Source of the DNA: a virus
Virus genome (UHGV): UHGV-0200630
Direction: 5' to 3' (one strand)
Length of the DNA: 20,449 nucleotides
A program made the position numbers and the translations under genes. Of this stretch, positions 362-20,449 are shown piece after piece. Each line of letters begins with the position of its first letter. The first letter of the stretch is position 1. Under the pieces are notes generated by a model. The model ran no database searches and was not told where the DNA came from. It was given only the letters and a program-made list of their open reading frames with translations.

Positions 362-388
362 AAAAAGGGAGCGCGAGGCTCCCTTTTG
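362..388 (-). terminator. Intrinsic terminator (bidirectional-looking) after the 105-aa gene
   Basis: Stem GGGAGC (367-372) / GCTCCC (378-383) with 5-nt loop, flanked by A5 (362-366) and TTTTG (384-388); on the minus strand the hairpin is followed by U5. Same stem sequence as the terminator at 18769-18791. Confidence 0.6.
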
Positions 389-706: not shown

Positions 707-723
707 TTGTTCTCCTTTTGACT

Positions 724-2180: not shown

Positions 2181-2225
2181 CTTGAATCTCCTTTTTAAAA
2201 GACCTCCTTGTCTTTATTTAGAACG

Positions 2226-5200: not shown

Positions 5201-5915
5201 CAACAATCTGACTCGGACCGTTGTTCGAGGAAACGCGTTCTCCTGTGTTCAGATCTGTAATCAAACGTCCTCTAACGTCAACAGATACTTGACTGTTAGG
5301 TTGCAGGATATCAGCTTGGTTTTGAAGGTCTGAGTTACGTTTGCGCATAACAACACAACAAGCAGCGATGTTATTACCAGTAGCAGAATCAGGCCAGCCA
5401 GCATCTGAATTTCCTAGATATTTCTGAGCAAGAGTAAAAACGTGACCGTATGGCTTACCAGTTGAGAATTCAACTTCAACATATTGCTGATATTCAGCAG
5501 CGATTGAACCTTTCGGAAGAACACCGTCTTTATAAACGCCATCAAGTAAGATTTTCTGATTATCCATATAAAGGTTTTTGAAGCTATCAACTTCACCTTC
5601 ACAGATTGCAAAGATCTGAACCAAATATGTCGTATCAACGCCAACAGCTTTCCAAACGTTAATCGTACCTGTACGCTGTTCACCATAGATAATAGGAATA
5701 ACACTTGATGGATCTGACGTTGTTCCTAATGTCGTTGCTGTGTCTGTGCTGTTAAATCGGGGAACGTTCTGCGCCATCTGAGTTGACATCAAAGCAGAAA
5801 CAGCAGCAACAGCGACACCAATACCAATTGCCAAAGCAAGAGCAGCACCCGCAGCGTAAGCAGCAGCAGCCGCGGAAGCACCTGCGATAATTGCACCAAT
5901 AGCTACAATAGCCAT
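2226..5915 (-). CDS. Tail tip / host specificity protein, lambda gpJ-like (1229 aa) with atypical hydrophobic N-terminus
   Basis: Strong SD AGGAGA (6-nt spacer). Middle and C-terminal regions (e.g. FMVADNRVYMDSAMIRN..., GTVYADRIEGDVIK) resemble lambda J as I recall it, including fibronectin-III-like stretches. Residues 1-45 are an Ala/Gly/Ile-rich hydrophobic segment. Confidence 0.85.
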   Translation of the reverse strand: MAIVAIGAIIAGASAAAAAYAAGAALALAIGIGVAVAAVSALMSTQMAQNVPRFNSTDTATTLGTTSDPSSVIPIIYGEQRTGTINVWKAVGVDTTYLVQIFAICEGEVDSFKNLYMDNQKILLDGVYKDGVLPKGSIAAEYQQYVEVEFSTGKPYGHVFTLAQKYLGNSDAGWPDSATGNNIAACCVVMRKRNSDLQNQADILQPNSQVSVDVRGRLITDLNTGERVSSNNGPSQIVDYLTNDRYGLGIQIDKIDLDSFKEAARYAKLNSLFSDGATDPNGSFKENLTQLAGAFNGIITETFGKVTCRIDGPDVVQYDFNEDNINAGTVSLNDGGSENYYNTLNVKYQDPSIDYSDQVLRYPSDVTNDGTIAKDKRIIAKDISYRFVKSKSQLDKIASIERNKSLLKQVISFSTADAYTAQVWDVIRVNFSELELVNSLWRITNIDRSMNKGAAGIVTITASEYIEEVYTNLDYAKDPDNTGSNIPNKSVLIAPKNLTVKAVAETALGRTLKVQWTSEPDYNRAGYYIQYSLAGKNSWIQAGFTSGDYFLIMSLDPNQKFDIRVCASGVVYRSDWVYVNNVNPEVMYNLPVVTGLHLVNAVENQYTTNKTQFEFAWDDQSAQKFYVDDTLQTFGEVFQYYEIKIEGQRPVIYKTKDLGFVYDFNMNLGNGLSRELKVSVTAYGHAGMKSDPAVITVKNNQAPAIQGFTASNGPGMLMCSWNDPRDNKPEVPDFKGTIVHIAKDQSFNEIVHVYSSSSPFLDNFPLEDGQFYVRSAWYDVFGQDQITWSESKFIDMKWDIPWTDDMKEQLNDLLDLDKRVDGAIDEALDLANKYTDTKVTASEQKVTTELNQTITTKNTELHTQITNETNGAINQAISIQESNFDGKLNSAITKVEKTQADDRQATASSINQLKAETNTAIATVSQESKASVDDLTGTINSKWAVQTNADGVVAGISMLANKNPDGSKQSSIVFNADKIAITNNNTPAGAVAPFMVADNRVYMDSAMIRNASIGSAQIADASINNAKIQNGAINNAKIENGAITTAKIGNAQIGSAQIAYEISSDNWFPSGGTQGWTIRKDGWASFQNVNIRGNIQADSGYFAGEIRGGSGYFTGTVYADRIEGDVIKMGHIDPWTTVHIPAVNWNRVISIPNLSISGRTYSGGAWGYGTAWINMSNGQEIVRTVTSAMSGSNGGTGIIYAGQAVDLSYGADLNHATAARAVYFISKQQ

Positions 5916-6331
5916 TATTTTCTCCTGTTAAAAATTAATTCAAAATTAAAATCGTTGACGTTTATCAGTTGATATTTATTTTCATGTTCAACTAATGCTC
6001 TATTATTAAAAACGATAGATGCAACGTAATAGACACGGTTTTTATGTTTTTTCTTAATTAAGATAACCGAGCCTGTTTCTATAGTTTCTGATTTCTCAAG
6101 ATGCGTTTCACACGCTTCGAGAACGTTATTAAAACCAGTTAGCTCTTTGCAAATCTTGAGACCTTCAGGAATACTCGTGTATTTGTCTTTTAATTTGTCT
6201 GTGTATTCAGTAGCACAAACAAGGTCGATATATTCAGCAACAAGGATATTACAGTCGTTTTGACCGAAAACGTGTTGCTGATTGATATAGCGGTTAAGTA
6301 ATTTTGATAAGTCAGCTTGAAATTTAAACAT
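5915..6331 (-). CDS. Putative tail tip assembly protein with lambda gpK-like NlpC/P60 cysteine peptidase domain (138 aa)
   Basis: Immediately upstream of the J-like gene with TAATG coupling; GAGGTG SD. Motif FGQNDCNILVAEY resembles the Cys-containing motif of NlpC/P60 (lambda K C-terminal domain); later HxN/His candidates. Functional call is tentative. Confidence 0.55.
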   Translation of the reverse strand: MFKFQADLSKLLNRYINQQHVFGQNDCNILVAEYIDLVCATEYTDKLKDKYTSIPEGLKICKELTGFNNVLEACETHLEKSETIETGSVILIKKKHKNRVYYVASIVFNNRALVEHENKYQLINVNDFNFELIFNRRK

Positions 6332-6362
6332 GTTTCACCTCTGACTTTATTTAGAGCCAAAA

Positions 6363-6386
6363 AAAGACCCCTTGCGGAGTCTTTTT
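6363..6386. terminator. Bidirectional intrinsic terminator-like hairpin
   Basis: A-tract, imperfect GC stem (GACCCC/GGAGTC with TTGC loop), T5 on plus strand and U7 on minus strand; sits directly 3' of the 158-aa gene. Confidence 0.5.
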
Positions 6387-6388
6387 AA

Positions 6389-6865
6389 TTAATCACTTGA
6401 TGTCAAATCAACAACACCAGAAACAACAGGACCACCATCAACACTCAGTGTCATTGTCAGACCTTGAACTTCTGATTCACCGCCATTATGAACAGCGCTT
6501 GACAAGAAGCCGTTATAAACTTTTGCAACACCCAGTTTTTTAGTAGCATCAATCCAATAAACGATTTTAAACTGACCACGTTTACCATCTTCCGCAAGCT
6601 TAATCAGAACATCATGAACGCTTTCTGGAATATAGTTAACGGTCAAGTCGATATCAGGAACAGAGCCACGACCAACCAGTTTACGGGAGTATTTGTGAGA
6701 GAAGTTAGGAGCTGTAATAACTTCGCGTTCAATACCCGTAGAAGGGAATGCACCAGTTTCAGGAATTTCAACAAACTTTTCTGAATTCAGATCGGTGTTT
6801 GCAATTTCTGAGTTATAGAACACACTGACGTAAGAGCCAGCAAAAATATCAAATTTGTCTGCCAT
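6389..6865 (-). CDS. Putative abundant virion structural protein (158 aa), possibly tail tube/distal tail-like
   Basis: Isolated between two hairpins (6904-6926 and 6363-6386), suggesting separate high expression; AGGAAA SD. Gly/Val/Ser-rich sequence that I read as beta-rich. Family not recognised from sequence alone. Confidence 0.6.
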   Translation of the reverse strand: MADKFDIFAGSYVSVFYNSEIANTDLNSEKFVEIPETGAFPSTGIEREVITAPNFSHKYSRKLVGRGSVPDIDLTVNYIPESVHDVLIKLAEDGKRGQFKIVYWIDATKKLGVAKVYNGFLSSAVHNGGESEVQGLTMTLSVDGGPVVSGVVDLTSSD

Positions 6866-6903
6866 TTTTAATTTCCTATTTGAGTTAATATAGTTTATTT
6901 AGC

Positions 6904-6926
6904 AAAGGGGATTTCTCCCCTTTTTG
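6904..6926 (+). terminator. Hairpin with T-tract on plus strand (antisense to operon) between fiber gene and 158-aa gene
   Basis: GGGGA (6907-6911) / TCCCC (6916-6920), loop TTTC, followed by TTTTTG on plus strand; only UUUGC on minus strand. Confidence 0.4.
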
Positions 6927-9900
6927 TTATTTAGCTTCAAGTTCTTTAACGCGAGCACTTAATTCCTTGATAGCATTAACCAGCAACGCGTTTACAGCAG
7001 CAGAGTTAACACCAAGAATTTCGTCAGGTCCGAAAGAACTAACAGCTTCTGGTAATACTTCTTTCAGTTCTTGAGCAATAATACCTGCTTCACGAACTTC
7101 GAATGAATATTCAGTTTTGACTAAATCAGATTTCTTATCGTATACGTAACCAGTAAGTTTCTCGACTTTATCAACTGCGTTTTCAATTTCTTCAAAGTTC
7201 GATTTCAGACGTTTATCAGAAGTGCTAACCCATTGGATCGCATTTGCTGTTCCATTACCGAGGAATAGATAGTCTGCACCACCAATGTGAAGTGCAGCCT
7301 CGGGAGCAGAACTACCCGGATTATAAATGTCCATCGCAGCACCGTATTCTGTGCCCCAATGAACATGTTTCCAGATATTAATACATTTATCACGAGTCTG
7401 AGCTTCAACAATCATTCCCGCAGGACGATCACGCCACGCTGACCACTGCGGCCAACCGTCAACGACACCTTGAATCATCGCATTGCTTGCCCCGGTTCTA
7501 ACGTTTCCAACATAAACACCGCGAGACTCATTATGGGTGTTAATCGTAATTGACCGATCAATTGTCAAACCAGCTGTGTTAAAGGTTGCGATTTGAATAC
7601 CATTAGTAAAAATGCTTAAGTTTCCGTCCGTAACTTGTCGAATACCTGTATCGTTATCACCAAACGCGATTGAGTTTCCACCTAGTACGTTGTCCGTGTT
7701 AATACCAAAACTTGTTAAACGATTTGTTTCAACAGAAGGAGTATTAATTTTTCCAGGAACAGCAAAACGACCATCGATATCAAATTCATAATTAGCCATT
7801 TTACCGAACGTCGATTCTTCTTTCGTCCCAACACGAAGAATTCCTTTGCCCCATGAATTAGCTGGTCCTCTAATAGTTCCTAATTCAACAACAGTAGAGA
7901 ATCCGTGTCCTACGGAAACAGAGTTCATCGAATATCCGGGATAATAATCACTTTCACCAGCAACTGCTCCGAAGTTAATCTGCATAGGAGCATTTTGTCT
8001 CCATTGATTAGCGTAAGCATGATCATTGGTTGCTGCCCATCTTGCACCATCAATTTGAATTGTATTATGCTGAATATCCATCGCGGTATTAGTACCAGTC
8101 TGAACCGTCACGGATCCGTTAGTTCTAAGAGTAACACCAGATGACGTAGAGAAATCATTTCTCATATTCTGAGACCAGACAATATCGAGATTCTCACTTG
8201 TCTTGCCAAGAATCCAGGTATTATTGCGACCGTCCATATTGCCAGACATATAACTTGCCTGATTCGACGCAGGAATATTCAACTGAATAGCATTAGATTC
8301 GCCGTTGACAGAAACACCACTTGCAAGATTCAATCGACCATTGGTGTTTAATGAACCCATCCAATATTCAGGAGTATCACCATGAAACCAACATATAGAG
8401 TTATCCAGCCTATCGTCAGGATGATTAGCCATTGCCAACTCATGATAAATGGATCCAGCACCAACGGCTCTAACTTTTCTTAAATGATTTGATTGTTGCT
8501 CAGGAGTGTTCCAGTCGGGTAAGCTTTCCGAGTCATACCATCCGTAAGGCTTATTATTATAAATCGTTTTATAGAAACTTGCAGGGCCAGCAACACCAAG
8601 ACCTTCTTTAGTATCAATATAAGTTCTGCCTGAACCTCTCAGATAATGATTATATTTTCCACCATTAACTAATCCGAAATAAGTCGTGGCGTCACCAATG
8701 TTATTACCGTCGGTTGTCGTATCGATATTAATTAATGAATAACCTTCAGGAGCCATCAGATTCGAATCACCATCATCACTTCTGAAACGGAAATGAGTTT
8801 TTCTATTAAAGTAGTTTTCAGATCCTGCAATAGAAGCTGTTACAACGTTATTTGAATAGAAGTTTAACCATCCGTCTTCTCTCCATTTAAAACCAGTGTC
8901 GGAATCACCAATCGCGATAGAGTTTAAACCCAGTGAATTTCCAACGGCAAAGTTGCTTGCAACGGACATTAAAGGAGTTGTTACTGCATCAGTGATTCTA
9001 GCTTGACCTGAAATATCAATTGACATTCCTCTGCCTGTTTTTCCCCAAGTCATGGTCATTAGATCTAATGCGTCGGTTCCTTCGTTAGCATCACGACGAA
9101 ATAACAGTCGATCATCCGTATCCGTTGCGTATGCAATTTGATGAATAGTCTTTGAAGTTCTGCCGTGGTTTTCAATACTCAGAACATCACCGTTATTACC
9201 AGCAGGTGTAACTTTCAAAGTTCCTGCGTATACATTACCAGCAGCATGAACAGAAGGAACAGTTAAGTCGCCAGTCATCGTGTCGCCAGCTTTATTAACT
9301 TTGGTGTCAATCATGTCTTTCAGAGTCTGATTATCAACAGTCAAACGGTCATTAACTGCTTTAATCTTTTCGTCAGCATCAGCTTTATTCGCATCAACTT
9401 TCGTATTAATAGCCGTGTCGTTCTGGTCAACTTTTGAATTCAGATTATCAACGCGAGTGTTAATAGCAGCGTCGTTAGCATCAACTTTCTGTTCGAGTTT
9501 CGTCAGGTCAGCACTTGAACCTGTTTGAACTTTGCTGATTTCAGAATCAACGTAATCTTTACGCGTAGCGCTATCAGGAGCAACAGGAGCAGCAGGCAAA
9601 GATAACTGACCATTACCGTTAAGCACGAAGTCAGAACTCTCTCCTGTAGCTTTTCCTTTCGCTACCGTAACACGAAGTTCACCTTTAGAGTCTGTCTGAG
9701 CAGGAGAACTAATACGTGCTTTTGCTTTGTCGTGTTCATCAGCAAAAACAATATCGCTTTTATCAAGATTTTTTAAAGTCAGATTAGAATCGGATTCAAT
9801 ATCACTTGCTTTAATTTTTCCAGTAAAGGTCTGACCGCCTTCAACAACAGCATCAGCACCATTACCGATGTTAATAACAGCGTCACCGAATTTAGTAAAA

Positions 9901-10010
9901 ATCTTTTTATCGGCTAAGTTAATAGCGATTTCACCATCAAGCATGTTTTTCGCTTCTGGCTTTCTTCCGGCGACGTCTGTTCTATAATGTTTAACTTTAT
10001 TATTTGCCAT
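6927..10010 (-). CDS. Tail fiber protein with C-terminal intramolecular chaperone / Peptidase S74 autoproteolytic domain (1027 aa)
   Basis: C-terminal ~97 aa (SDKRLKSN...GIIAQELKEVLPEAV...LVNAIKELSARVKELE) match the S74 intramolecular chaperone domain of endosialidases and L-shaped tail fibers. Upstream KAGDTMTGDLTV fiber motif and Asn/Asp-rich repeats. Weak SD; start probably coupled to upstream gene. Confidence 0.85.
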   Translation of the reverse strand: MANNKVKHYRTDVAGRKPEAKNMLDGEIAINLADKKIFTKFGDAVINIGNGADAVVEGGQTFTGKIKASDIESDSNLTLKNLDKSDIVFADEHDKAKARISSPAQTDSKGELRVTVAKGKATGESSDFVLNGNGQLSLPAAPVAPDSATRKDYVDSEISKVQTGSSADLTKLEQKVDANDAAINTRVDNLNSKVDQNDTAINTKVDANKADADEKIKAVNDRLTVDNQTLKDMIDTKVNKAGDTMTGDLTVPSVHAAGNVYAGTLKVTPAGNNGDVLSIENHGRTSKTIHQIAYATDTDDRLLFRRDANEGTDALDLMTMTWGKTGRGMSIDISGQARITDAVTTPLMSVASNFAVGNSLGLNSIAIGDSDTGFKWREDGWLNFYSNNVVTASIAGSENYFNRKTHFRFRSDDGDSNLMAPEGYSLINIDTTTDGNNIGDATTYFGLVNGGKYNHYLRGSGRTYIDTKEGLGVAGPASFYKTIYNNKPYGWYDSESLPDWNTPEQQSNHLRKVRAVGAGSIYHELAMANHPDDRLDNSICWFHGDTPEYWMGSLNTNGRLNLASGVSVNGESNAIQLNIPASNQASYMSGNMDGRNNTWILGKTSENLDIVWSQNMRNDFSTSSGVTLRTNGSVTVQTGTNTAMDIQHNTIQIDGARWAATNDHAYANQWRQNAPMQINFGAVAGESDYYPGYSMNSVSVGHGFSTVVELGTIRGPANSWGKGILRVGTKEESTFGKMANYEFDIDGRFAVPGKINTPSVETNRLTSFGINTDNVLGGNSIAFGDNDTGIRQVTDGNLSIFTNGIQIATFNTAGLTIDRSITINTHNESRGVYVGNVRTGASNAMIQGVVDGWPQWSAWRDRPAGMIVEAQTRDKCINIWKHVHWGTEYGAAMDIYNPGSSAPEAALHIGGADYLFLGNGTANAIQWVSTSDKRLKSNFEEIENAVDKVEKLTGYVYDKKSDLVKTEYSFEVREAGIIAQELKEVLPEAVSSFGPDEILGVNSAAVNALLVNAIKELSARVKELEAK

Positions 10011-10022
10011 TTTCTTTATCCG

Positions 10023-11048
10023 TTAAAATACTCCTGCGTCTAAGGTTTCTCCTAACGCTACACAATTAATCTCTAATGGCGTTGGTTTATTACTTGGAGA
10101 ATAGACTTCTTTGCCTTTGACCTTGACAGAAGTTGAGTTAATTTCATTACTATTTAGAGCCAAGATTTCACCTTGTGGCGCAGAAATCTTTTTACGAACG
10201 TTCAGATATTCCTGAATAGTCAAAGATCCTTTGAGTTCTCCACCAGTAATAGGCAAAGCATTAATATCTTCAGGAGTTGGACGTTCAAGTTCTGTATAGA
10301 CTTTGACCCACGGAGATTCAGTAACAGTTTCACCGCTTTGTTGTTTGTTTCTGATTCTGATGCTTGGATTACCGACTGACGAACCAATAAGCTCCCAACC
10401 TTGACCATCAGGATGCTGAATAGCCATAGCAGACGTGCCAGAGTTATAAGGGTTATCGCTGTTTGTTGCATCGACTGTTACACATCTGTTACCAGTTAAT
10501 AATCCTAAGTCTTTAACGCCTGCGATTTCTTCTGTACCAGCACCAATACCATAATCGCCAACGTTTAACGGAACTGAGAATTCAGCAAAACCTGTAAACA
10601 ACTGACCATCAGGAGAAAGATTAAAAGTTGTTGTAACGACTGAGTTAGCCGAACCTGATGTTTCTTTCTTCGTTACATAAGCATTAAAAATATGATAAAG
10701 ACCAGCATCATTATCTTTCTTTGTTTCTCCATCGATAACATAAAGACTTCTGAATCTAAGGAGTTTCTTTTCCATAAGAGCTTCATCAAGCAACTGATAA
10801 ACTGGGTCAGAACTGTCTTCAAATAAGCTTATTGAAGTGTCGTTAATTGTTACGTCACCTGAAAGTTTCGTTGTGAAATCGGTTCTGTAATCTTCTAGTG
10901 TCTGAACTTCTTTTCTAAATCCGATAACAGGGAATGCAGCCAGTTTATCAGTGCTTACATAACCTGGGTCGTTATATCCTGGGATTTCAACGATTAGCGG
11001 ATTAACTGAAACTCTGACGTTATTTCCTACAAAAATATCGTTTGTCAT
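10023..11048 (-). CDS. Virion structural protein (341 aa), possibly major tail or fiber-associated protein
   Basis: Long ORF in the structural block, 7 nt downstream of the preceding stop. N-terminal half has a pattern reminiscent of major tail proteins; C-terminal part (PTPEDINALPITGGELKGSLTI) resembles fiber attachment regions. Family unresolved. Confidence 0.65.
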   Translation of the reverse strand: MTNDIFVGNNVRVSVNPLIVEIPGYNDPGYVSTDKLAAFPVIGFRKEVQTLEDYRTDFTTKLSGDVTINDTSISLFEDSSDPVYQLLDEALMEKKLLRFRSLYVIDGETKKDNDAGLYHIFNAYVTKKETSGSANSVVTTTFNLSPDGQLFTGFAEFSVPLNVGDYGIGAGTEEIAGVKDLGLLTGNRCVTVDATNSDNPYNSGTSAMAIQHPDGQGWELIGSSVGNPSIRIRNKQQSGETVTESPWVKVYTELERPTPEDINALPITGGELKGSLTIQEYLNVRKKISAPQGEILALNSNEINSTSVKVKGKEVYSPSNKPTPLEINCVALGETLDAGVF

Positions 11049-11055
11049 TTTAGTC

Positions 11056-11454
11056 TCACATTAAGTATTCGAAAGTTAAAATTATTTGTGCGCTAACATG
11101 ACCATTTGATGCTTCACTATCATAATCAGTGAAGCTCGAACTTGGATAAATCTTATCGATTTTAAATGGGATAAGTTTTTCATGATTAGCTTTAATAGAA
11201 ATTAAGTCGTAAACGGCTTTGTGAACGCCTGTTTCGCTTTTCTCTGAGAAAATATCAATCGTAATACTAAGAACACTTGCAAGTTTCGATTGCAAACCGA
11301 TTCGCGTATATTCTTCTGTCATTCCTGGAATCATTACTTGAACAGGTTCTTTAACACCAGTTGTGAAAGCGTTTTTGACGTATTTCAGATTAAGTTCTTT
11401 AACGATTATTTCTTCCAGAGCGCGTTTAATTCCTAAACGTGGCAGATTAGTCAT
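11056..11454 (-). CDS. Putative head-tail connector/neck protein (132 aa from ATG at 11454; ORF open to TTG at 11532)
   Basis: ATG at 11454-11452 preceded by AGGAGA (about 9-nt spacer) and overlapping the stop of the upstream gene (ATGACTAA). The longer ORF-track version would start at TTG with no SD. Function inferred from position only. Confidence 0.5.
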   Translation of the reverse strand: MTNLPRLGIKRALEEIIVKELNLKYVKNAFTTGVKEPVQVMIPGMTEEYTRIGLQSKLASVLSITIDIFSEKSETGVHKAVYDLISIKANHEKLIPFKIDKIYPSSSFTDYDSEASNGHVSAQIILTFEYLM

Positions 11455-11743
11455 AGAATGATGTCTCCTGTTCGCCTTTAAATGCCAGATAACAATTAGC
11501 AAGTCCTGAACCATCATTAACAAGATACGCAATGGTATACAGAATCTCGTTTAATAGAACTTCATCTTCTTGCTTAACTTTATTGATATCAGCGGTTATA
11601 TAGATTGTCTCGCTTACTTGTCCGTTATCGTTGTTAATCTCAATTTCAACAATACCGAGTTCATCAGAATCGTTAATTTTGATTTTCTGTCCGAAACGAG
11701 TTAAGAAAGACTGTTTTTGTTTTTCTGAATATGGAAAAATCAT
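11447..11743 (-). CDS. Putative head completion / connector protein (98 aa)
   Basis: ATG at 11743 with AAGGAGA SD (5-nt spacer), immediately downstream of the capsid-gene terminator. Acidic small protein; function inferred from position only. Confidence 0.55.
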   Translation of the reverse strand: MIFPYSEKQKQSFLTRFGQKIKINDSDELGIVEIEINNDNGQVSETIYITADINKVKQEDEVLLNEILYTIAYLVNDGSGLANCYLAFKGEQETSFYD

Positions 11744-11777
11744 GTTGTCTCCTTTTTATTATATTTAGTCCAGAAAC

Positions 11778-11803
11778 GAAAAAAGGACTCCCGAAGGAGT
11801 CCT
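11778..11803 (-). terminator. Strong intrinsic terminator after the capsid gene(s)
   Basis: 8-bp stem AGGACTCC (11784-11791) / GGAGTCCT (11796-11803) with 4-nt loop, followed on the minus strand by U6 (11778-11783). Confidence 0.8.
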
Positions 11804-11823
11804 CTGATTATTCAGCAGTTTCA

Positions 11824-11853
11824 GCTTTCGCTTTCGCTTTTGCTTTTGCTTTT
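11824..11853. repeat. Five tandem hexamers GCTTTY (RAAAGC on the coding strand) in the capsid 3'UTR
   Basis: Read directly: gctttc gctttc gctttt gctttt gctttt, beginning immediately after the stop codon at 11855-11857 and ending before the terminator. Confidence 0.8.
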
Positions 11854-11854
11854 C

Positions 11855-12067
11855 TTAGGCTTGTTTTTCGTGCAGGAACAGACGATCATCAGCACAAACT
11901 TTCCAATCGATATCAGCCCAAACGCGAGGAACGATAGCGCCTTTGTTACGGTAAGTTGTGTCGTCTAGGTCAAGAGCAAGACCTTCCCACTCAGCTACGG
12001 TTACAGCAGAGAAGTCACCAGAGATAACCTGACCTTCTTTAACAAGACCGGAACCGATAAACATCAT
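11855..12067 (-). CDS. Small capsid-associated ORF (70 aa) overlapping the capsid gene 3' end in the +1 frame; separate protein or frameshift extension
   Basis: ATGATG at 12067-12062 lies 29 nt inside the capsid ORF in the +1 frame; only a weak GGGCGGA SD. Shares the terminator at 11778-11803 with the capsid gene. Confidence 0.45.
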   Translation of the reverse strand: MMFIGSGLVKEGQVISGDFSAVTVAEWEGLALDLDDTTYRNKGAIVPRVWADIDWKVCADDRLFLHEKQA

Positions 12068-13760
12068 GTCCGCCCAGTTTGTTCAGGTCGTCGATGATAT
12101 AACCAGCAACACCAGCGTCACGCAGAGTGGTTTTCAAATCACCTTCAAGAGCAGCAGCCATCAAATATTTGAACTTGTCCATTGCTACGCCGTCGCCTTT
12201 AGCTTTAGCAGCTTCAACAACGAATTCTTTGTAGGTCATTCCCATCTGTTTTGCTACTAACTGAGCAACGATAGACTGAGGAGCTTTTGCGTCGGTAATA
12301 GAACCGAACATCAGACCTTCCAGTTTAGCGCGTGAGAAATTCACGATATGGTCAGAAATGAACGCACCCAGATTAGGCAGAGTCAACAGAGCTTGACGAG
12401 AAATCGGGTTACCACCAGTAAATGTCTTAGGCATAAACTGAATGTTTTCGAATTTGCTTTCGCCTTCTGGAGATTCACCGTTTTCATCAACGAAACCGAA
12501 TGCATCAACACTTGATTTTGTCTGCTTAGGAACAGAAATCGGAGTAGTCAGACCAGTCAGGAAGTTAACTCCCAGCTTATCAGCAACAGTGTCTTTCAAC
12601 AGCATTTCAACGAATGAATCATAACGCTGAACAGTTTCTTGTACTGCGGAAACAGTTGATACAGTGTTAATAGCGCGTTTGCCTTGCAGAGCACTAACTG
12701 GCATATAGATACCTTGAGAAACGTTAGCACCGCGCATCAGACGCTTACGGGACATTTCTTGAGTATATTCAGCAGCAGCACCGCGAACAGCTTTACCATT
12801 CATCATAGAGCGAACAGCATCGCCAAGGTCGAATTTATTTTCCAGAGTTTGTTTAGTATCTTTAGTCATGTTGCGAATCACCGTTGCAGATTTATTAGGT
12901 TTAATAGAGCGTTTGAATTGACGTGCGGTCATGCCTTTAGCGATAGCGCTTGCAACGTCTTTCTGTGCTACTTTGTAGCGTTGTGCGATTTCAAGAATTT
13001 CTTCCGCTTCTTCTTCGCGTTCTTCTTCTGTCAGTTCGTCACCAGCAGGAACAGCAGCAGGAGCGTCATCAGTTTTTTCAACAGCAGAATCACCAGCGTT
13101 TTCATTTTCAACGACTACTTCTTCCAGAATTTCTTCACGCTTTGCACGATCTTCATCGGACAGCATTTCAATTTCATCGATAGTCATTTCTGCCAGTTCA
13201 TCTTTAGTCATTTCATCAATACGTTTCATTCGAGTACCTTTGTTAAGTTTGTTTGTTGTATCTGTATTTAGTAGTCTTCCCAAACCGACTTTATCGTCAG
13301 CAGGAACAGTGACGAAAGAAATTTCATATGGTGCCCATTTCGTAACAATAAGATTGTCGCCTTCTAAGTGATATTCATTAATGTCATATCCGAAAGAGAT
13401 TTTACTAATTGTTCCTTCTTGAACTTTTGCACCGATTTCTTTAGCTAATTCACCGTGTTGACTGAATTGGACTTTTGCTCGTCCTATTTTGTCTTCATCG
13501 ATTCGAACAGAATCAGGAATAACGATTCCCAAGTGTTTATCAAAATCATGGTTAAACAGCAAAGCAGCACCGTTATTAATTCGGGTCAAGTCAGCGTTAT
13601 GTGAGCCGTCATGAACGAGAATTTCATTAACAGTAATGTTTTGACCGTATTCATCCTGAATCTGTCTTTCAACAGGAGTTTCAGAACTGAACGCAATTTC
13701 AAAAACACCATCAACAGAATCAATACCCTGAACTGTGTAATCGCGCTTAAGTTTTAGCAT
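12039..13760 (-). CDS. Prohead protease (HK97 gp4 / Peptidase S78-like) fused to scaffold-like acidic linker and putative HK97-fold major capsid domain (573 aa)
   Basis: N-terminal ~170 aa carry protease-like motifs (LLFNHD....GIV, ISFGY). Residues ~180-270 are an acidic, helical Glu-rich linker (delta/scaffold-like). C-terminal ~300 aa are of capsid-domain size, directly after portal and before a strong terminator. AGAGGA SD. Confidence 0.75.
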   Translation of the reverse strand: MLKLKRDYTVQGIDSVDGVFEIAFSSETPVERQIQDEYGQNITVNEILVHDGSHNADLTRINNGAALLFNHDFDKHLGIVIPDSVRIDEDKIGRAKVQFSQHGELAKEIGAKVQEGTISKISFGYDINEYHLEGDNLIVTKWAPYEISFVTVPADDKVGLGRLLNTDTTNKLNKGTRMKRIDEMTKDELAEMTIDEIEMLSDEDRAKREEILEEVVVENENAGDSAVEKTDDAPAAVPAGDELTEEEREEEAEEILEIAQRYKVAQKDVASAIAKGMTARQFKRSIKPNKSATVIRNMTKDTKQTLENKFDLGDAVRSMMNGKAVRGAAAEYTQEMSRKRLMRGANVSQGIYMPVSALQGKRAINTVSTVSAVQETVQRYDSFVEMLLKDTVADKLGVNFLTGLTTPISVPKQTKSSVDAFGFVDENGESPEGESKFENIQFMPKTFTGGNPISRQALLTLPNLGAFISDHIVNFSRAKLEGLMFGSITDAKAPQSIVAQLVAKQMGMTYKEFVVEAAKAKGDGVAMDKFKYLMAAALEGDLKTTLRDAGVAGYIIDDLNKLGGHDVYRFRSC

Positions 13761-13776
13761 TACCAGTCCTCTGTTG

Positions 13777-13806
13777 GAGCGTCTTTCGACGCTCTTTGTT
13801 TTTCTG
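13777..13806 (+). terminator. Hairpin with plus-strand T-tract between portal and capsid genes
   Basis: 7-bp stem GAGCGTC/GACGCTC with TTTC loop (GAAA on the mRNA strand), followed by TTTGTTTTTCTG on the plus strand; no U-tract on the minus strand. May be an antisense terminator or mRNA processing/stability element. Confidence 0.4.
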
Positions 13807-13819
13807 AATGTATTTAGTG

Positions 13820-15370
13820 TTATTCCACCGAGTTATCCGAATTAATTTCAGCAACTTCCACTTGAGCATCAGCCGTTAATGCAGCAGGTGCAGCAGCAAC
13901 TTTAATTTGATTATCGTATTTCGGAACATAACGAGTTCTTTCTTGTTCAACCTGAGCAAATACAATATCCGGGTCTTCACCGCGAGCAATAATAATATCA
14001 GAAGCAGATTTGAATCCGTTTTCAACATCAAAAATATCCTTCTGAGTATCTTTAATTGGGTCGATACTTTGCCATTGAGGATATGTCCAAACAGTCTGAC
14101 GAAGAACTGAAGGAATAGTTGTCATTTTCAAATTAACGGTTTCTCTGATAATTGACCATTGTAACCAACGTTCAAAAATAACATCAAAAACCTGTTCTTT
14201 AATATTACGCTGAACTGATTTAAACATTACGCGTTGTGCAAGATCACCGAAGCGGGCAGCAGAATAGTTAATATTTGCTGTGTCACCTTTCCAACCTTGT
14301 TTGTAAAAACCGTAACCCATAGCAAGCAGGTCTTCCAGACGATTCGTGAAGTTCATAAAGTCGTCACCGCCCTGAGTAGAGCTAAACTGCTTTATATCGT
14401 AACCAGCAGGAAGTTTATGAATTGTCCCTGATTCAAAGTTTTGAATAACATCAGGAGATTCTTCAATGCCTTCGTTATCGCTATCAATTTCGATATTATC
14501 TTGACCGTCTTTGTCTTGAGTGATGAAACCCATAGAGCTTGCTGCGGCGCGTTTCTGAATCAACGTTGCTTTTGTGAAAGCATCATATTGGTTCATAACA
14601 TCAATATTCGCTACACATTCAGGAATGCCTCTGCGTTGATCAGGGAACAATTCTCTGTAATAGTGAATAATATTTTCAGCGTCGATACCTTCAGATTTAC
14701 CAGATGAAGTCTGTGTTGCTTTGCTTATTGTGTTAAACCAGTAACGAACTGGAACATCATCGTTATTATATTCGATACCATCAAGAACATAACCGTTGTC
14801 GGAGGTTTCTCTGTCGCCAAATTTACAGCGTGAAGCTTCGATAATTTCAAGCTTAAATTCAGTATCAGATTCGTGAATACGAATAAAAACCTCGCCGTCA
14901 ACAAATCTTGAACGTTCAACGAGTTCTTGAAATCTGCGCCAGTTCATTCTTTCATTTTTACTGAAACGTTTTGCTGAACTTGACCAATAGCTGAACTGGT
15001 CCATAATCATAGAGTTCAGTTTCTTGCTTGGCTTTCCGTTTGTTCCCAGAATACGCAATTGTGGGTTAATACCTTCACCGATAACGTTATCAACTTGATA
15101 TTGAACAGCACGTTTACCAACTGGTGTATTAATCGAAAGAGTTCGAGACATATTACGAATGCCATCGGCATAAGTTCGAATCTCGTTATTAATCGTTGCA
15201 GTCGTAATCAGGTTCTCTTGAAAGTCGCCATCTAAACGGTCAGTTCGAGGACCAAGAATACGCTGTAACTGTGAGCCATATGCTTGCTCGTTATCAATTA
15301 CCAGTTTCTGTTTCTGTTTACGTGTTTTCGGTTCTGCTTTTTTAAATGTGAAAAAATCTCTAATACTCAT
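13820..15370 (-). CDS. Portal protein, lambda gpB-like (516 aa)
   Basis: Size and position (after terminase and W-like gene, before protease-capsid); ATGA start-stop overlap with upstream gene. Portal identity is by synteny and size plus general sequence character; exact family needs HMM confirmation. Confidence 0.8.
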   Translation of the reverse strand: MSIRDFFTFKKAEPKTRKQKQKLVIDNEQAYGSQLQRILGPRTDRLDGDFQENLITTATINNEIRTYADGIRNMSRTLSINTPVGKRAVQYQVDNVIGEGINPQLRILGTNGKPSKKLNSMIMDQFSYWSSSAKRFSKNERMNWRRFQELVERSRFVDGEVFIRIHESDTEFKLEIIEASRCKFGDRETSDNGYVLDGIEYNNDDVPVRYWFNTISKATQTSSGKSEGIDAENIIHYYRELFPDQRRGIPECVANIDVMNQYDAFTKATLIQKRAAASSMGFITQDKDGQDNIEIDSDNEGIEESPDVIQNFESGTIHKLPAGYDIKQFSSTQGGDDFMNFTNRLEDLLAMGYGFYKQGWKGDTANINYSAARFGDLAQRVMFKSVQRNIKEQVFDVIFERWLQWSIIRETVNLKMTTIPSVLRQTVWTYPQWQSIDPIKDTQKDIFDVENGFKSASDIIIARGEDPDIVFAQVEQERTRYVPKYDNQIKVAAAPAALTADAQVEVAEINSDNSVE

Positions 15371-15861
15371 GATGGATTCGTGAACCTCGCTTTAATAGTA
15401 ACAATCGGAGATTTACCGTTTGCCATTTGTTCTGACTTAATCAGATTTGCTAAGTTAGCTAAAAGTCGTTTTCGAGCCATAAGCAGCGAATCAAGCGTTT
15501 CATAAACGAATGATTTACCGTTAATACTCATTTGTTGAATAGCTTCTTCGTTACTTGTCAGACGATACTGAATAACTGTATCGATATCGTTAATCATTTC
15601 TCTGAGTTGTTCTCTTTTCGTTTTTGAAACGAATGGTGATTTCACTTTGATAATGCTGTTACTGATAAGCGCACCTTCATAGAGAACAACAACAGAAAAA
15701 GTTCCTTCGATAAAATCTGATGTGTCCACCGAGATATTCGCTGGACAATCAGTTTGAGAAAACAATTTAGTTTCAGTTGAGCCTATGGAGACTGTTGCAC
15801 CTTCAGGATTATAAACAGCGAGTTTTTCACCGATGTAAATTTCTGAATTTGATTTTTGCAT
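15367..15861 (-). CDS. Head-tail joining protein with gpW-like C-terminal domain (164 aa)
   Basis: Located between large terminase and portal, as gpW is in lambda. C-terminal ~60 aa (EQLREMINDIDTVIQYRL...GKSFVYETLDSLLMARKRLLANLANL) resemble the gpW fold pattern; extra ~90-aa N-terminal domain. AAGGAGA SD. Confidence 0.6.
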   Translation of the reverse strand: MQKSNSEIYIGEKLAVYNPEGATVSIGSTETKLFSQTDCPANISVDTSDFIEGTFSVVVLYEGALISNSIIKVKSPFVSKTKREQLREMINDIDTVIQYRLTSNEEAIQQMSINGKSFVYETLDSLLMARKRLLANLANLIKSEQMANGKSPIVTIKARFTNPS

Positions 15862-15881
15862 TGAGTTCTCCTTTCTTATAT

Positions 15882-17765
15882 TTATAATCCGAAACCACGA
15901 GGCTTATTAACTGGTCTGTTTCGTTTGATAATGTTTCGACGAGGTTCATGAGTTTGAATAACAGGAGAATTTGTTTCGTTTTGTTCTTCTGGCATTTCAA
16001 TATCAGATTTAGCAGCGAGTTTCCTCCACTCGTGAAATTTGATTTTCTCTAGAACTTGCAGACGCGCGCAATAACCGTAGTTAAAGCAGTCAAGACCTTC
16101 GTTACGAACACCGCCTTGTTTAATAACCCATCTAACAGTATTACCAGAGCGTTTTAATTCTTCGGACATAAGCTGTTCGCAGTAATCATCTGGAACATCA
16201 TCAGAGATTTCGACTCTGACTGGTGTATTTCCAGATTTCACGCTTCTGTTTAGCAGTTCACGAACTAAGTTTTTTCCTTGGTTTACACCAATCATATAAA
16301 GTTCATAACCACCGGTTTTCGTGATTTTCGTTGGAACATAAGGGGCATCAACAGAGCTGGCACCTTTAATTGCTTTCAGGTTTGTCCACTGAGAGCAGAA
16401 ACGATAGATTGTTTTAGTTGCTCGACCGTTTGAGCTATCGACGTTCACCCACGCTAAAGGAACCTTTCTTCCCAAAGCTGTTCTGAACGGTGCTTTAACG
16501 TATGCAAGAAGTTCTTTATAAGCAGGGGAATCGATAACCTCAGCGTTCATTGTCATAAAGCTACGATGTGCAAGAATATAAACGGTTCGTTCGTTGTGAC
16601 CCATCAAGGTTACTTCTAAACGGTCTTGCTGTTGGTCAACCCCAGCGGTTAAAAACAACGTGTCTTCTGGTATATTGCTGATGCCGATATTCGTCTTGAG
16701 TGTTTCTAATTTACTAACCTCAATGTCTTCGTTTAAATCATCAAACGGTAGACCAAGAACAGTGTTATAAAACGTTGACAAGCTGAACGTTTGCCATGCT
16801 TGCTTATAGTCTTCAACAACTGATTTGATAGAACTCATTGGGCTGTATAAACGACTTACGTGGAATCCAGCAATTCGACTTTCAGGTTGATGAATAATCC
16901 ATTCACCTTGTTTAATTGCTCGTGCTCGGTCGCCTTCAGAGAAAGCGTGATGACATTCAGGACATTCAATTCTGGCAGAGTTAGGATCAGGTAATGATTT
17001 ACCATCGATTTTTACCCAGTCGAATTTGATATTCTCCCACGTCAGTTCGTGCTTATGACCACATGTAGGACAGGGAACATGATACTTGCGCTTGTCGGAT
17101 GCTTCATACTGCGTGTGGATAGCACCGTATTTACTTGTAGGCGTCGAGCTAATGAAAACACGAGCGTCTTCACCGAACGTCGTAGCACGTTGTTCCGCGA
17201 TGATAATCGGGTTGCCTTCTTCTGTGTCTGTTTCAACTGCGTCAACTTCATCAAGCAACATCAGCGGAAGAGTTTTACCGCGTAAGTGAGAAGGGCTATT
17301 GAGCGACATGAAATACCAAAAGCCTCCAGCACGTAGCTGAATTTGACTGGTGTTATTCACTGCGTTTCTGTCGTTCTTGTCGGTGACGATTCGTTGCATT
17401 TCTTCCGATTCGTCAATCATTGGGCGAATCTTGCCTGATAGCCATTGAGTCGTCTCTTTACCGGTTGACTGCAAGACACCAGCGTTACCGGGATCAGTAG
17501 CAGACTTATAGAACAGAATTCCGTTCAAGATGGTTGTCTTGCCAATCTGGGCAGAAGTCTCGAAGACGATTTTCTTCTTACGTTCTTTAATGACGTCAAT
17601 CATGCCTTTCTGAAACTCAAACAGTTTCATCGGCTGCCCTGTATAAGGACCATCAGGGAATTTCAGGTACTGTTCGACCCACTCGGACGGAGTGTAGTCA
17701 GGAGGTGGCATTAAAAAGCGCTTTGCATTCTGTAAGATACTTTTCAGTTTATTTGAGTTTTTCAT
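15882..17765 (-). CDS. Terminase large subunit, lambda GpA family (627 aa)
   Basis: Walker A-like FETSAQIGKTT; zinc-ribbon-like CPTCGH...ECPECHH; LTAGVDQQQDRLEV and NEGLDCFNYGY match lambda gpA segments as I recall them. First gene of the leftward operon. Confidence 0.9.
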   Translation of the reverse strand: MKNSNKLKSILQNAKRFLMPPPDYTPSEWVEQYLKFPDGPYTGQPMKLFEFQKGMIDVIKERKKKIVFETSAQIGKTTILNGILFYKSATDPGNAGVLQSTGKETTQWLSGKIRPMIDESEEMQRIVTDKNDRNAVNNTSQIQLRAGGFWYFMSLNSPSHLRGKTLPLMLLDEVDAVETDTEEGNPIIIAEQRATTFGEDARVFISSTPTSKYGAIHTQYEASDKRKYHVPCPTCGHKHELTWENIKFDWVKIDGKSLPDPNSARIECPECHHAFSEGDRARAIKQGEWIIHQPESRIAGFHVSRLYSPMSSIKSVVEDYKQAWQTFSLSTFYNTVLGLPFDDLNEDIEVSKLETLKTNIGISNIPEDTLFLTAGVDQQQDRLEVTLMGHNERTVYILAHRSFMTMNAEVIDSPAYKELLAYVKAPFRTALGRKVPLAWVNVDSSNGRATKTIYRFCSQWTNLKAIKGASSVDAPYVPTKITKTGGYELYMIGVNQGKNLVRELLNRSVKSGNTPVRVEISDDVPDDYCEQLMSEELKRSGNTVRWVIKQGGVRNEGLDCFNYGYCARLQVLEKIKFHEWRKLAAKSDIEMPEEQNETNSPVIQTHEPRRNIIKRNRPVNKPRGFGL

Positions 17766-18768: not shown

Positions 18769-18791
18769 GGGAGCTTAGTGCTCCCTTTTTT
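18769..18791 (+). terminator. Intrinsic terminator
   Basis: Stem GGGAGC (18769-18774) / GCTCCC (18780-18785), loop TTAGT, followed by T6 (18786-18791). Confidence 0.8.
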
Positions 18792-20391: not shown

Positions 20392-20448
20392 TAGATCACT
20401 GAAAGGGAACTCAGCCCGGATTGTGCGATCTGATCAATCGCCAAACCA
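20371..20448. repeat. Right terminal inverted repeat (78 bp), reverse complement of 1-78
   Basis: Read directly; one extra base (a, 20449) beyond the repeat at the right end. Confidence 0.95.
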
Positions 20449-20449
20449 A

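What the first reader, a model, noticed from the sequence alone, without database searches (positions are those of the whole stretch)
12039..13760. Single polypeptide combining prohead protease, scaffold-like acidic linker and putative capsid domain
The N-terminal ~170 aa carry HK97 gp4-type protease motifs (LLFNHD, ISFGY); the next ~100 aa are strongly acidic and helical (TEEEREEEAEEILE); the remainder is capsid-sized. No separate scaffold or capsid gene is evident elsewhere. A three-in-one capsid assembly polyprotein would be a compact solution consistent with the small genome.
Basis: partly seen in the sequence, partly recalled or inferred. Interest (0 to 1): 0.5.

Follow-up and report, generated by a model that had tools for sequence, protein, structure and literature searches.

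The report
Frameshifted protease–scaffold–capsid fusion gene
This is an E. coli prophage gene that encodes the head-maturation protease, a scaffold-like spacer and the capsid shell protein as one chain, an arrangement already described in other phages, and this copy is broken by one extra base that cuts off the last 67 residues of the capsid domain.

Summary
It is not a complete gene. An extra T (TTT instead of TT, window 12059-12061) shifts the frame. The last 67 residues of the capsid domain lie in the next small ORF (11855-12067). Two complete E. coli genomes, two IMG/VR contigs and all 31 aligned homologues have one uninterrupted ORF, 634 aa in the near-identical copies. The broken allele is real: its exact 573-aa product sits on at least 15 independently assembled contigs.

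The three-in-one reading holds for the intact protein:
- Residues about 178-371 are acidic, then basic and helical, and variable.
- Residues about 372-634 have the HK97 capsid fold.

Roseophage R4C gp6 is a full-length homologue. Its solved capsid chain is exactly its C-terminal 268 residues.

The architecture is common and published, so this is already known. The "small genome" argument fails, because the window is part of a prophage.

One possibly new point: an in-frame ATG with a Shine-Dalgarno motif just after the protease domain is conserved across distant lineages. This suggests a nested scaffold-capsid product.

The parts
11855..13760 (-). Whole fused gene as it stands in the window: 1906 nt, one base too many. 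With the extra base removed it is a 634-aa protease-scaffold-capsid protein identical to WP_000916040.1.
   Evidence: 1905-nt ORF in CP146665; first difference at GATGTT[T]ATCGG; the same protein in CP107720; all 31 homologues read straight through this site.
12039..13760 (-).
12059..12061 (.). Frameshift site. The run is AAA on the plus strand (TTT in the gene), where intact relatives have two bases.
   Evidence: One search shows the TTT allele in L084-L090 and the TT allele in L002, L004, L005 and L013.
11855..12067 (-). 70-codon ORF in the +1 frame. From Ile568 onward it carries the true C-terminal 67 residues of the capsid domain. The true stop codon is TAA at 11855-11857.
   Evidence: Pfam Phage_capsid profile 220-272 of 280, E 0.0027; phrog_617 profile 553-612 of 626, E 2.6e-7.
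13266..13760 (-). Prohead protease domain, residues 1-165. The candidate catalytic residues are His71 (13548-13550) and Ser122 (13395-13397).
12648..13229 (-). Scaffold-like middle region, residues 178-371. Residues 178-249 are acidic, variable in length and partly disordered (pI 4.05). Residues 250-371 are conserved, basic and helical (EEILEIAQRYKV..., FDLGDAVRSMM..., AEYTQEM).
   Evidence: charge and pI; helices 186-342, low-pLDDT linkers; length variation and conserved blocks. A scaffold function is inferred, not shown.
13227..13241 (-). Candidate internal translation start (site A): AAAGG at 13237-13241, a 7-nt spacer, then the in-frame ATG of Met178 at 13227-13229. It would give a 457-aa scaffold-capsid product without the protease.
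   Evidence: Searches show that an ATG with an SD motif at this alignment position is conserved across distant lineages. In the window itself the SD is weak (duplex energy -3.9 kcal/mol).
12867..12869 (-). Second conserved in-frame ATG (Met298, site B). In many relatives an AAGG(A) motif precedes it. In the window it has no clear SD.
11858..12647 (-). Predicted mature capsid protein, residues about 372-634 (263 aa, 28.5 kDa), with the HK97 fold. It is interrupted by the extra base. A conserved Arg362|Ala363 a few residues upstream is a possible cleavage site.
   Evidence: 8gta_A, E 5e-17, query residues 379-619. (Foldseek: 8gta_A E 1e-17, TM 0.74; HK97 gp5 TM 0.70-0.75). (the R4C chain equals gp6 residues 362-629, and residue 362 maps to Ala372 here). 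(Pfam Phage_capsid, residues 380-623). (the R-A dipeptide in most homologues).
13767..13772 (-). Shine-Dalgarno sequence (AGAGGA) of the annotated start codon at 13758-13760.
   Evidence: (duplex energy -5.8 kcal/mol).

Best explanation
The locus is the head-shell gene of an E. coli prophage.

Shown:
- In its intact form (634 aa) it encodes, in order, an S78 (HK97 gp4-type) serine protease, a roughly 200-aa scaffold-like spacer and an HK97-fold major capsid protein.
- The copy in this window carries a genuine one-base insertion (TT to TTT) that removes the last 67 residues of the capsid fold.

Inferred mechanism:
- The C-terminal domains assemble into the procapsid shell with the N-terminal parts facing inward.
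- The spacer acts as an internal scaffold, as the HK97 delta domain does.
- The tethered protease needs no separate targeting. It cuts the precursor near residue 362-372 and degrades the internal parts. This leaves a capsid protein of about 28.5 kDa.
- The window copy is most likely an inactivated allele in a decaying prophage.
- An internal in-frame start just after the protease domain probably also produces a protease-free scaffold-capsid protein. Protease would then be made in lower amounts than shell subunits.
For: Domain identity:
- Pfam S78 and Phage_capsid both pass their cut-offs on the intact protein.
- His71 and Ser122 are invariant in 31 homologues.
- The capsid-domain model matches the R4C, HK97, GTA and other capsid proteins.

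Processing in a homologue:
- R4C gp6 (629 aa) aligns end to end with this protein (28% identity, E 5e-45).
- The deposited capsid chain 8GTA is exactly its last 268 residues.
- In Nocturne116 the same three-domain ORF18 is cleaved at Arg242|Ser243, as seen by cryo-EM (PMC13595954).

Frameshift:
- The window has TTT where two complete genomes and two IMG/VR contigs have TT.
- The exact truncated product is found on at least 15 contigs. The seven shown come from seven different assemblies or runs, and all are 99.99-100% identical to the window.
- Other copies of this prophage carry IS insertions in the terminase and tail-tip genes.

Nested start:
- An ATG with an SD motif occurs at alignment position 172-189 in 16 of 22 non-redundant lineages, and in 8 of 12 more distant ones, including R4C (-9.5 kcal/mol, stronger than its annotated start).
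- Only 10 of 223 other in-frame ATGs have such a motif.
Against: - No experiment here shows proteolysis, assembly or internal initiation for this protein.
- The scaffold role of residues 178-371 rests on position, composition and analogy.
- The full-length AF2 model is mediocre (mean pLDDT 67.6).
- The R4C chain start coincides with the start of the Pfam domain, so it may reflect modelling limits rather than the true mature N-terminus.
- The proposed Arg362|Ala363 site is absent from two homologues (P0079 and P0108).
- In the window itself the SD at site A is weak (-3.9 kcal/mol) and site B has none.
- Pseudogene status is inferred. Low-level ribosomal slippage cannot be excluded.
Confidence: 0.85

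Rival explanations
1. The extra T is a sequencing or assembly error. The source genome has the intact 634-aa gene.
For: Two of the three differences between the window and CP146665 are one-base expansions of homopolymer runs (12061 and 18791). This is the usual signature of read errors.
Against: The exact 573-aa product is called on at least 15 contigs. The seven shown come from two NCBI assemblies, one ENA assembly and four SRA runs assembled by Logan. All seven have GATGTTTATCGG and are 99.99-100% identical to the window.
Confidence: 0.04
2. The interruption is functional. Either a programmed +1 ribosomal frameshift at GUU-U-AUC restores the full capsid protein, or the 573-aa and 70-aa products complement each other.
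For: The downstream frame stays open and intact for all 67 residues. The rest of the structural module in TTT-bearing contigs has no other lesion. A rare CGG codon follows the site in the zero frame.
Against: - All 31 aligned homologues and the intact allele have a single continuous frame at this site, so there is no conserved recoding signal.
- GUU-U is not a known +1 slippery site. After a shift, tRNA-Val would mispair at the first codon position (established frameshifting rules, from my own knowledge).
- No SD precedes the 70-aa ORF.
- A capsid protein needed in about 415 copies per head (R4C) cannot be supplied by inefficient slippage.
- The TT and TTT alleles differ by 1-3 bases over 20 kb, so the change is very recent.
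Confidence: 0.03
3. The gene makes only the full-length polyprotein, with no internal start. Every shell subunit brings its own protease and scaffold, which are removed in cis or trans after assembly.
For: - This is the simplest reading of a single ORF.
- It is how the three-domain ORF18 of Nocturne116 is described.
- The SD at Met178 is weak in the window (-3.9 kcal/mol) and absent at Met298.
- Six of 22 lineages lack an SD-ATG at site A.
Against: - SD plus ATG at one alignment position, inside an otherwise unconserved linker, recurs in lineages that share only 25-30% identity. These include sequences from Alpha- and Gammaproteobacteria (R4C, Sphingopyxis, Ferrimonas) and from Methylotenera.
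- At site B the lysine codon inside the motif is AAG in most lineages that have the motif, although AAA makes up 81% of lysine codons in these genes.
- My rough estimate, from remembered HK97 prohead dimensions: 415 copies of a 41-kDa internal part would fill well over half of a T=7 procapsid.
Confidence: 0.35
4. The fusion protein is not the shell protein. Another ORF, for example the 341-aa one at 10023-11048, is the major capsid protein.
For: None found beyond its size.
Against: - The N-terminal 148 residues of the 341-aa protein are a paralogue of the 158-aa ORF at 6389-6865 (BLASTP E 1e-10).
- Both hit PHROG 158 'major tail protein', and the 341-aa C-terminus hits tail-fibre families.
- Neither has a Pfam or NCBIfam capsid hit.
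- The C-terminus of the fusion is homologous to a solved capsid protein.
Confidence: 0.01

Closest known systems
Dinoroseobacter siphophage vB_DshS-R4C gp6 (vBDshSR4C_006; capsid structure PDB 8GTA)
   Same: - It is a full-length homologue: 629 aa against 634 aa, 28% identity over 626 residues, E 5e-45.
- It has the same order of protease region, spacer and HK97-fold domain.
- The gene order around it is similar: large terminase, a head-to-tail joining/adaptor protein, lambda-type portal, then the fusion gene.
- The deposited capsid chain is exactly its C-terminal 268 residues, in a T=7 shell of 415 copies.
   Different: - R4C is a free-living siphophage of an alphaproteobacterium with an intact gene.
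- Pfam does not report S78 on its N-terminus at E <= 0.01.
- The R4C paper never uses the words protease, cleavage or scaffold for this gene.
- Its spacer is Pro/Ala-rich rather than Glu-rich.
Lactococcus phage Nocturne116 ORF18
   Same: It is described as an N-terminal prohead protease, a putative central scaffolding domain and a C-terminal HK97-fold capsid protein. The mature N-terminus was observed by cryo-EM after an Arg|Ser cleavage at the scaffold-capsid junction. The window protein has a conserved Arg362|Ala363 in the equivalent place.
   Different: - Its precursor is much shorter: the mature protein starts at residue 243, against about 363-372 here.
- It has a prolate head with a separate vertex protein.
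- It infects a Gram-positive host.
- No sequence relationship to the window protein was tested here.
HK97 gp4 (protease) and gp5 (delta domain plus capsid protein)
   Same: The protease family is the same (Pfam S78; TIGR01543 'HK97 family' at 47.8 bits). The capsid fold is the same (TM 0.70-0.75). In both, an N-terminal internal scaffold fused to the capsid protein is removed by the protease. The function of the HK97 delta domain is taken from established literature.
   Different: - In HK97 the protease is a separate gene and reaches the procapsid through its C-terminal tail. Here it is covalently attached.
- TIGR01543 is below its cut-off of 59 bits.
- The spacer here is about twice as long as the 102-aa delta domain and has a highly acidic, variable segment.
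- HK97's cross-linking residues were not examined.
Nested protease-scaffold genes: lambda C/Nu3, herpesvirus UL26/UL26.5, Haloferax virus HFTV1 gp17
   Same: In these genes an in-frame internal start inside a protease-containing gene yields the abundant assembly protein without the protease. For HFTV1 this was shown by ribosome profiling. The conserved SD-ATG right after the protease domain here would work the same way.
   Different: - In those systems the nested product is a scaffold only and the capsid protein is a separate gene. Here the nested product would be scaffold plus capsid protein.
- Internal initiation is inferred from sequence conservation only.
- No description of it for three-domain fusions turned up in the two literature searches aimed at this question.
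Annotated protease-capsid fusions in other phages
   Same: The one-gene architecture is the same. It has been noted for Arthrobacter clusters AM, AU and AN and for Rhodococcus phage RRH1, and for the Rhodobacter RcC cluster. Full-length tblastn homologues occur in VP882, phiHAP-1, ECOO78, Arya and PPpW-3, the last annotated as 'major capsid protein and peptidase U35'. NCBIfam NF045541 and PHROG 4523 carry the fusion in their names.
   Different: - The window protein scores 114 bits against NF045541, whose cut-off is 525, and only over residues 14-333. It belongs to a different lineage of fusions.
[quoted passage not shown]

Membership tests
Peptidase family S78 (HK97 gp4-type caudovirus prohead serine protease; Pfam PF04586) | Significant match to the family profile | tested here: met
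   PF04586 scores 42.2 bits (E 1.2e-10, cut-off 21) on residues 63-156. The stricter equivalog TIGR01543 scores 47.8 bits, below its cut-off of 59.
Peptidase family S78 (HK97 gp4-type caudovirus prohead serine protease; Pfam PF04586) | Conserved catalytic His and Ser about 50 residues apart | tested here: met
   His71 (LLFNH) and Ser122 (KIS[FV]GY) are invariant in 31 homologues that reach down to about 42% identity. The spacing is 51 residues. The HK97 values (His65, Ser114) are from my memory and were not checked here.
Peptidase family S78 (HK97 gp4-type caudovirus prohead serine protease; Pfam PF04586) | Herpesvirus-assemblin / T4 gp21-like fold | tested here: met
Peptidase family S78 (HK97 gp4-type caudovirus prohead serine protease; Pfam PF04586) | Proteolytic activity on capsid precursors | not testable with these tools
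   Indirect only. The solved capsid chain of the homologue R4C lacks the N-terminal 361 residues.
HK97-fold major capsid proteins (Pfam PF05065 Phage_capsid) | Significant match to the family profile | tested here: met
   The intact 634-aa protein scores 28.1 bits (cut-off 24.2) on residues 380-623, profile 10-271 of 280. The window's truncated 573-aa ORF gives no hit. Its 70-aa remnant scores 17.6 bits, below the cut-off.
HK97-fold major capsid proteins (Pfam PF05065 Phage_capsid) | HK97 fold | tested here: met
   Foldseek against the PDB: R4C 8gta_A (E 1.2e-17, target TM 0.74), HK97 gp5 Prohead II (TM 0.71-0.75), RcGTA, D3 and Bxb1. In all, 361 hits have E <= 0.001. Block-mean pLDDT of the capsid domain is mostly 80-90 for residues 481-590 and lower towards its N-terminal part.
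HK97-fold major capsid proteins (Pfam PF05065 Phage_capsid) | Forms the icosahedral shell of a virion | not testable with these tools
   By homology only. R4C gp6 forms a T=7 shell of 415 copies.
HK97-fold major capsid proteins (Pfam PF05065 Phage_capsid) | Complete fold encoded in one reading frame (needed for a functional member) | tested here: not met
   In this window the one-base insertion at 12059-12061 puts residues 568-634, including predicted strands 577-582, 586-599, 608-621 and 627-632, out of frame. The feature is met in the TT allele of CP146665 and CP107720.
NCBIfam NF045541 'prohead protease/major capsid protein fusion protein' | Score above the model's cut-off | tested here: not met
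   114.3 bits against a cut-off of 525, with the match limited to residues 14-333. The architecture is the same but the lineage differs.
Nested (internally initiated) protease-scaffold genes of the lambda C/Nu3 and UL26/UL26.5 type | In-frame internal translation start downstream of the protease domain | tested here: inconclusive
   A conserved SD-motif ATG lies at alignment position 172-189 in 16 of 22 lineages plus 8 of 12 distant ones. Only 10 of 223 background ATGs have the motif (Fisher p about 1e-10; lineages are not independent). In the window the SD is weak. There are no expression data.

The most novel reading that the evidence does not exclude
The three-domain gene is a nested gene. 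A conserved ribosome-binding site and ATG just after the protease domain (Met178 here) produce a protease-free scaffold-capsid protein. In enterobacterial lineages a second site near Met298-306 may do the same. The full-length protease-bearing form would then be a minority species. This would extend the lambda C/Nu3 and herpesvirus UL26/UL26.5 principle to a gene that also contains the capsid protein. It would also explain how a fused protease avoids being present at one copy per shell subunit.
Probability: 0.5. Interest if true: 0.45.

Novelty: already known. Interest (0 to 1): 0.22.

Why it matters
As given, the finding adds little. Protease-scaffold-capsid fusions are annotated in RefSeq, have a curated NCBIfam model and a PHROG family, and have been described in several phage groups. 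Cryo-EM of Nocturne116 has shown the mature N-terminus of one such fusion.

Two points have practical value:
- This copy is a real frameshift allele. Automatic annotation calls it only 'HK97 family phage prohead protease' or splits it in two. The same prophage shows a different lesion in different strains, which is a neat example of prophage decay.
- The conserved internal start signal, if functional, would show how fused head genes set the ratio of protease to shell subunits. That is directly testable by ribosome profiling or tagged expression.

Tried and rejected
- I first recalled that the short-tailed Shiga-toxin phages (933W type) carry this head module. The tblastn search of 50,697 phage records found only 70 matching records, and none of the 40 rows displayed was a Stx phage. 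I dropped that idea.
- Searching the literature for the string '8GTA' returned only DNA-sequence noise.
- The CBASS-escape preprint that mentions a 'prohead protease fusion' concerns protease-scaffold proteins of T1-like phages, with a separate capsid gene. It is analogous but not the same architecture.
- The R4C structure paper says nothing about processing of gp6. The link between the 268-residue chain and the 629-aa gene had to be computed.
- Foldseek with the full-length model returned only capsid hits in the 50 rows listed. The protease domain was therefore modelled and searched separately.
- I treated the frameshift as a sequencing error until one search showed the same product on many independent contigs.
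- Two literature searches for internal starts in protease-capsid fusions found nothing relevant.
- Not used: the representative-library HMMER search, the metagenome scan, the RNA tools and the third fold search.
Full report
**What is in the sequence.** An ATG-started ORF of 573 codons runs from 13760 down to 12039 on the minus strand. An AGAGGA Shine-Dalgarno sequence precedes it. The gene sits in a typical head module, all on the minus strand:
- lambda-type large terminase (15882-17765);
- a 164-aa head-tail joining protein;
- lambda-type portal (13820-15370);
- this ORF, followed by small ORFs and tail genes.

**The ORF is truncated by a one-base insertion.**
- PHROG 617 ('major head protein') aligns to residues 3-562 but only to profile positions 8-542 of 626. 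The overlapping 70-codon ORF at 11855-12067, in the +1 frame, matches positions 553-612 of the same profile and the end of Pfam Phage_capsid.
- The window is 99.99% identical to a prophage island in the complete chromosome of E. coli MS 115-1 (CP146665) and also matches strain 2021CK-01361 (CP107720). In both, the gene is one 1905-nt ORF for the 634-aa protein WP_000916040.1.
- The only difference inside the gene is GATGTTTATCGG in the window against GATGTTATCGG. The 573-aa product is therefore 567 authentic residues plus YRFRSC. Residues 568-634 (IGSGLVKEGQVISGDF...) are encoded out of frame.
- All 31 aligned homologues, and both 100%-identical IMG/VR contigs, read straight through.
- The insertion is not a one-off read error. 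The exact 573-aa product is called on at least 15 contigs. The seven shown come from two NCBI assemblies, one ENA assembly and four SRA runs assembled by Logan. Each is 99.99-100% identical to the window and each has TTT.
- The intact state is ancestral, because every outgroup has it.
- The simplest reading is a recent inactivating mutation carried by one clonal lineage, in a prophage that is decaying in several ways. The two complete genomes with the intact capsid gene have IS3 or IS5 elements in the terminase and tail-tip genes.
- A programmed +1 shift is unlikely. There is no conserved signal and no known slippery site, and the capsid protein is needed in hundreds of copies.

**Protease domain.**
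- Pfam Peptidase_S78 matches residues 63-156 at twice its cut-off.
- His71 and Ser122 are invariant in the alignment.

**Capsid domain.**
- The intact protein passes the Pfam Phage_capsid cut-off on residues 380-623.
- phmmer against PDB sequences finds the capsid protein of roseophage R4C (8gta_A, E 5e-17, residues 379-619).
- The AF2 model matches that chain (Foldseek E 1e-17, TM 0.74) and HK97 gp5 (TM 0.70-0.75), together with several hundred other HK97-fold capsid chains.
- R4C is more than a fold match. Its gene 6 encodes 629 aa that align with the window protein from residue 19 to 618 (28% identity, E 5e-45). The deposited capsid chain of 268 residues is exactly gp6 residues 362-629.
- Mapped onto the window protein, the mature capsid protein begins at or shortly before Ala372. 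That gives about 263 aa and 28.5 kDa.
- A conserved Arg-Ala dipeptide (Arg362|Ala363) nine residues upstream is a plausible cleavage site. It resembles the Arg|Ser site seen in Nocturne116, but it is missing in two homologues.

**Middle region.**
- Residues 178-249 are very acidic (27 Asp+Glu of 72, pI 4.05), variable in length between homologues, and partly disordered in the model.
- Residues 250-371 are basic, helical and well conserved.
- This region lies between protease and shell domain, and it is absent from the solved R4C shell. Both fit an internal scaffold like the HK97 delta domain. That function is inferred, not shown.

**How common and how well known.**
- The protein search returned 2293 relatives. 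All of the best 120 are 626-681 aa and carry both Pfam domains.
- Full-length tblastn homologues occur in isolated phages, including VP882, phiHAP-1, ECOO78, Arya, PPpW-3, RcCronus and S-CBS1.
- They also occur in genomes from Gamma- and Alphaproteobacteria, Methylotenera and Verrucomicrobiota.
- NCBIfam has a model named 'prohead protease/major capsid protein fusion protein', and PHROG 4523 is 'major head and protease protein'.
- Fused protease-capsid genes have been pointed out in Arthrobacter and Rhodococcus phages (PMC5513430) and in Rhodobacter phages (PMC8601537).
- The cryo-EM study of Nocturne116 describes the same three-domain precursor and its cleavage (PMC13595954).

**The 'small genome' argument and the alternative capsid candidate.**
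- The window is not a genome. Its first 75 and last 76 bases are perfect inverted copies of each other and match regions next to or within IS630-family (ISEc33) elements elsewhere in E. coli. Both junctions fall at a TA or TAG shared with the chromosomal sequence. I infer that the window is a whole draft contig bounded by two IS copies.
- In the complete genomes the phage-like island continues on both sides.
- The N-terminal 148 residues of the 341-aa ORF are a paralogue of the 158-aa ORF at 6389-6865 (E 1e-10). Both fall in PHROG 158 'major tail protein', and the 341-aa C-terminus resembles tail fibres. It is not a capsid protein.

**A possible nested start.**
- Met178, the first residue after the protease domain and its short linker, is preceded by AAAGG with a 7-nt spacer.
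- The two relatives first checked have stronger motifs (GAAGGA, TAAGGA) in different codon phases and with different amino acids.
- I examined 22 IMG/VR lineages that are less than 85% identical to each other (median pairwise identity 31%).
  - Sixteen have an in-frame ATG with a Shine-Dalgarno motif at alignment position 160-185.
  - Fifteen have one at position 290-310.
  - Only 10 of 223 other in-frame ATGs have such a motif, and 6.8% of all codon positions do.
- At the second site the lysine codon inside the motif is AAG in most lineages that have the motif, although AAA makes up 81% of lysine codons in these genes.
- The first site recurs in 8 of 12 more distant genes, from Ferrimonas, Sphingopyxis, Methylotenera and R4C. 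In R4C the GGAGG motif (-9.5 kcal/mol) is stronger than the one at the annotated start.
- The lineages are related, so the p-values overstate independence. Even so, the signal lies in a linker with no amino-acid conservation.
- I read this as a probable internal initiation site that yields a protease-free scaffold-capsid protein. Known parallels are lambda C/Nu3, herpesvirus UL26/UL26.5 and, by ribosome profiling, HFTV1 gp17.
- It would also ease a packing problem. By my rough estimate from remembered HK97 prohead dimensions, 415 copies of a 41-kDa internal part would fill well over half of a T=7 procapsid.
- In the window itself the signals are weak, and nothing here measures expression, so this remains a hypothesis at about 50%.

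**Verdict.** The ORF and motifs are right, but the frameshift was missed and the capsid domain boundary is off by about 70 residues. The feature is already known. Interest is low, with a modest upside if the nested start proves real.

Noticed in passing
window 1-75 and 20374-20449: The two ends of the window are perfect inverted copies of each other. They match regions next to or within IS630-family (ISEc33) elements elsewhere in E. coli. Both junctions fall at a TA or TAG shared with the chromosomal sequence. In the complete genomes the phage sequence simply continues at these points. The window therefore looks like a whole draft contig bounded by two IS copies.
   Followed up: partly
L002 28219-29973 (CP146665), about 0.7 kb beyond the right end of the window; also L087 and L088: A retron Ec67-family reverse transcriptase/endonuclease gene lies next to this structural module, followed by a TIR-domain gene. 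From memory, retron Ec67 was originally mapped to a roughly 34-kb prophage-like element. This island may be that element.
   Followed up: no
window 16796-16800; L002 22725-23944; L004 5853-7049 and the gap flanked by 18744 and 19942: The same prophage carries a different lesion in different strains. MS 115-1 has IS3 in the large terminase gene. Strain 2021CK-01361 has IS5 (ISEc68) copies in the tail-tip and terminase genes. The window's lineage has the capsid frameshift but intact terminase and tail-tip genes.
   Followed up: partly
window 18786-18791: This is the second one-base difference from CP146665: a run of six T here against five there, in the region between the divergently oriented gene blocks. 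Its effect is unknown.
   Followed up: no
window 2226-11048: The tail region has no recognisable tape-measure gene. It holds two paralogous tube-like proteins (a 158-aa ORF and the N-terminus of the 341-aa ORF), a 1027-aa fibre with a Peptidase_S74 chaperone domain, a DUF6950 protein, and a 1229-aa Phage_Tail_Tip protein with an Ala-rich hydrophobic N-terminus. The tail type is unclear.
   Followed up: partly
window 13777-13794 (minus strand): A perfect 7-bp hairpin with a GAAA loop (gagcgtc-gaaa-gacgctc) lies in the 59-nt gap between the portal stop codon and the fusion gene's start. No T-run follows it. It might be an RNA stability or processing element.
   Followed up: no
window 11774-11820: A short AAAGC/AAAGCG-type repeat lies directly after the true stop codon of the capsid gene. 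It gives 90-92% BLAST matches to the soc / 'capsid and scaffold' region of T4-like phages. This is probably low-complexity coincidence.
   Followed up: no
L001 (PQ671644.1, Escherichia phage DCP80, record positions 1-16000): A 141-kb record classified as a T4-like Straboviridae phage begins with a lambda-type terminase, a portal and a 666-aa homologue of this fusion gene (64% identity), all annotated as hypothetical. This looks like a chimeric assembly, or a prophage fragment joined to a T4-like genome.
   Followed up: no
L054 (IMGVR_UViG_2877285697_000006): In another relative of the fusion gene the longest open frame is only 393 codons, although tblastn matches residues 1-627. This may be a second independent disruption of this gene family.
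   Followed up: no
window 1423-1899 (minus strand): A 158-aa ORF is annotated in RefSeq as an endonuclease-domain protein. It has Cys and His-rich motifs that resemble the endonuclease VII/HNH type. It sits downstream of the tail genes.
   Followed up: no
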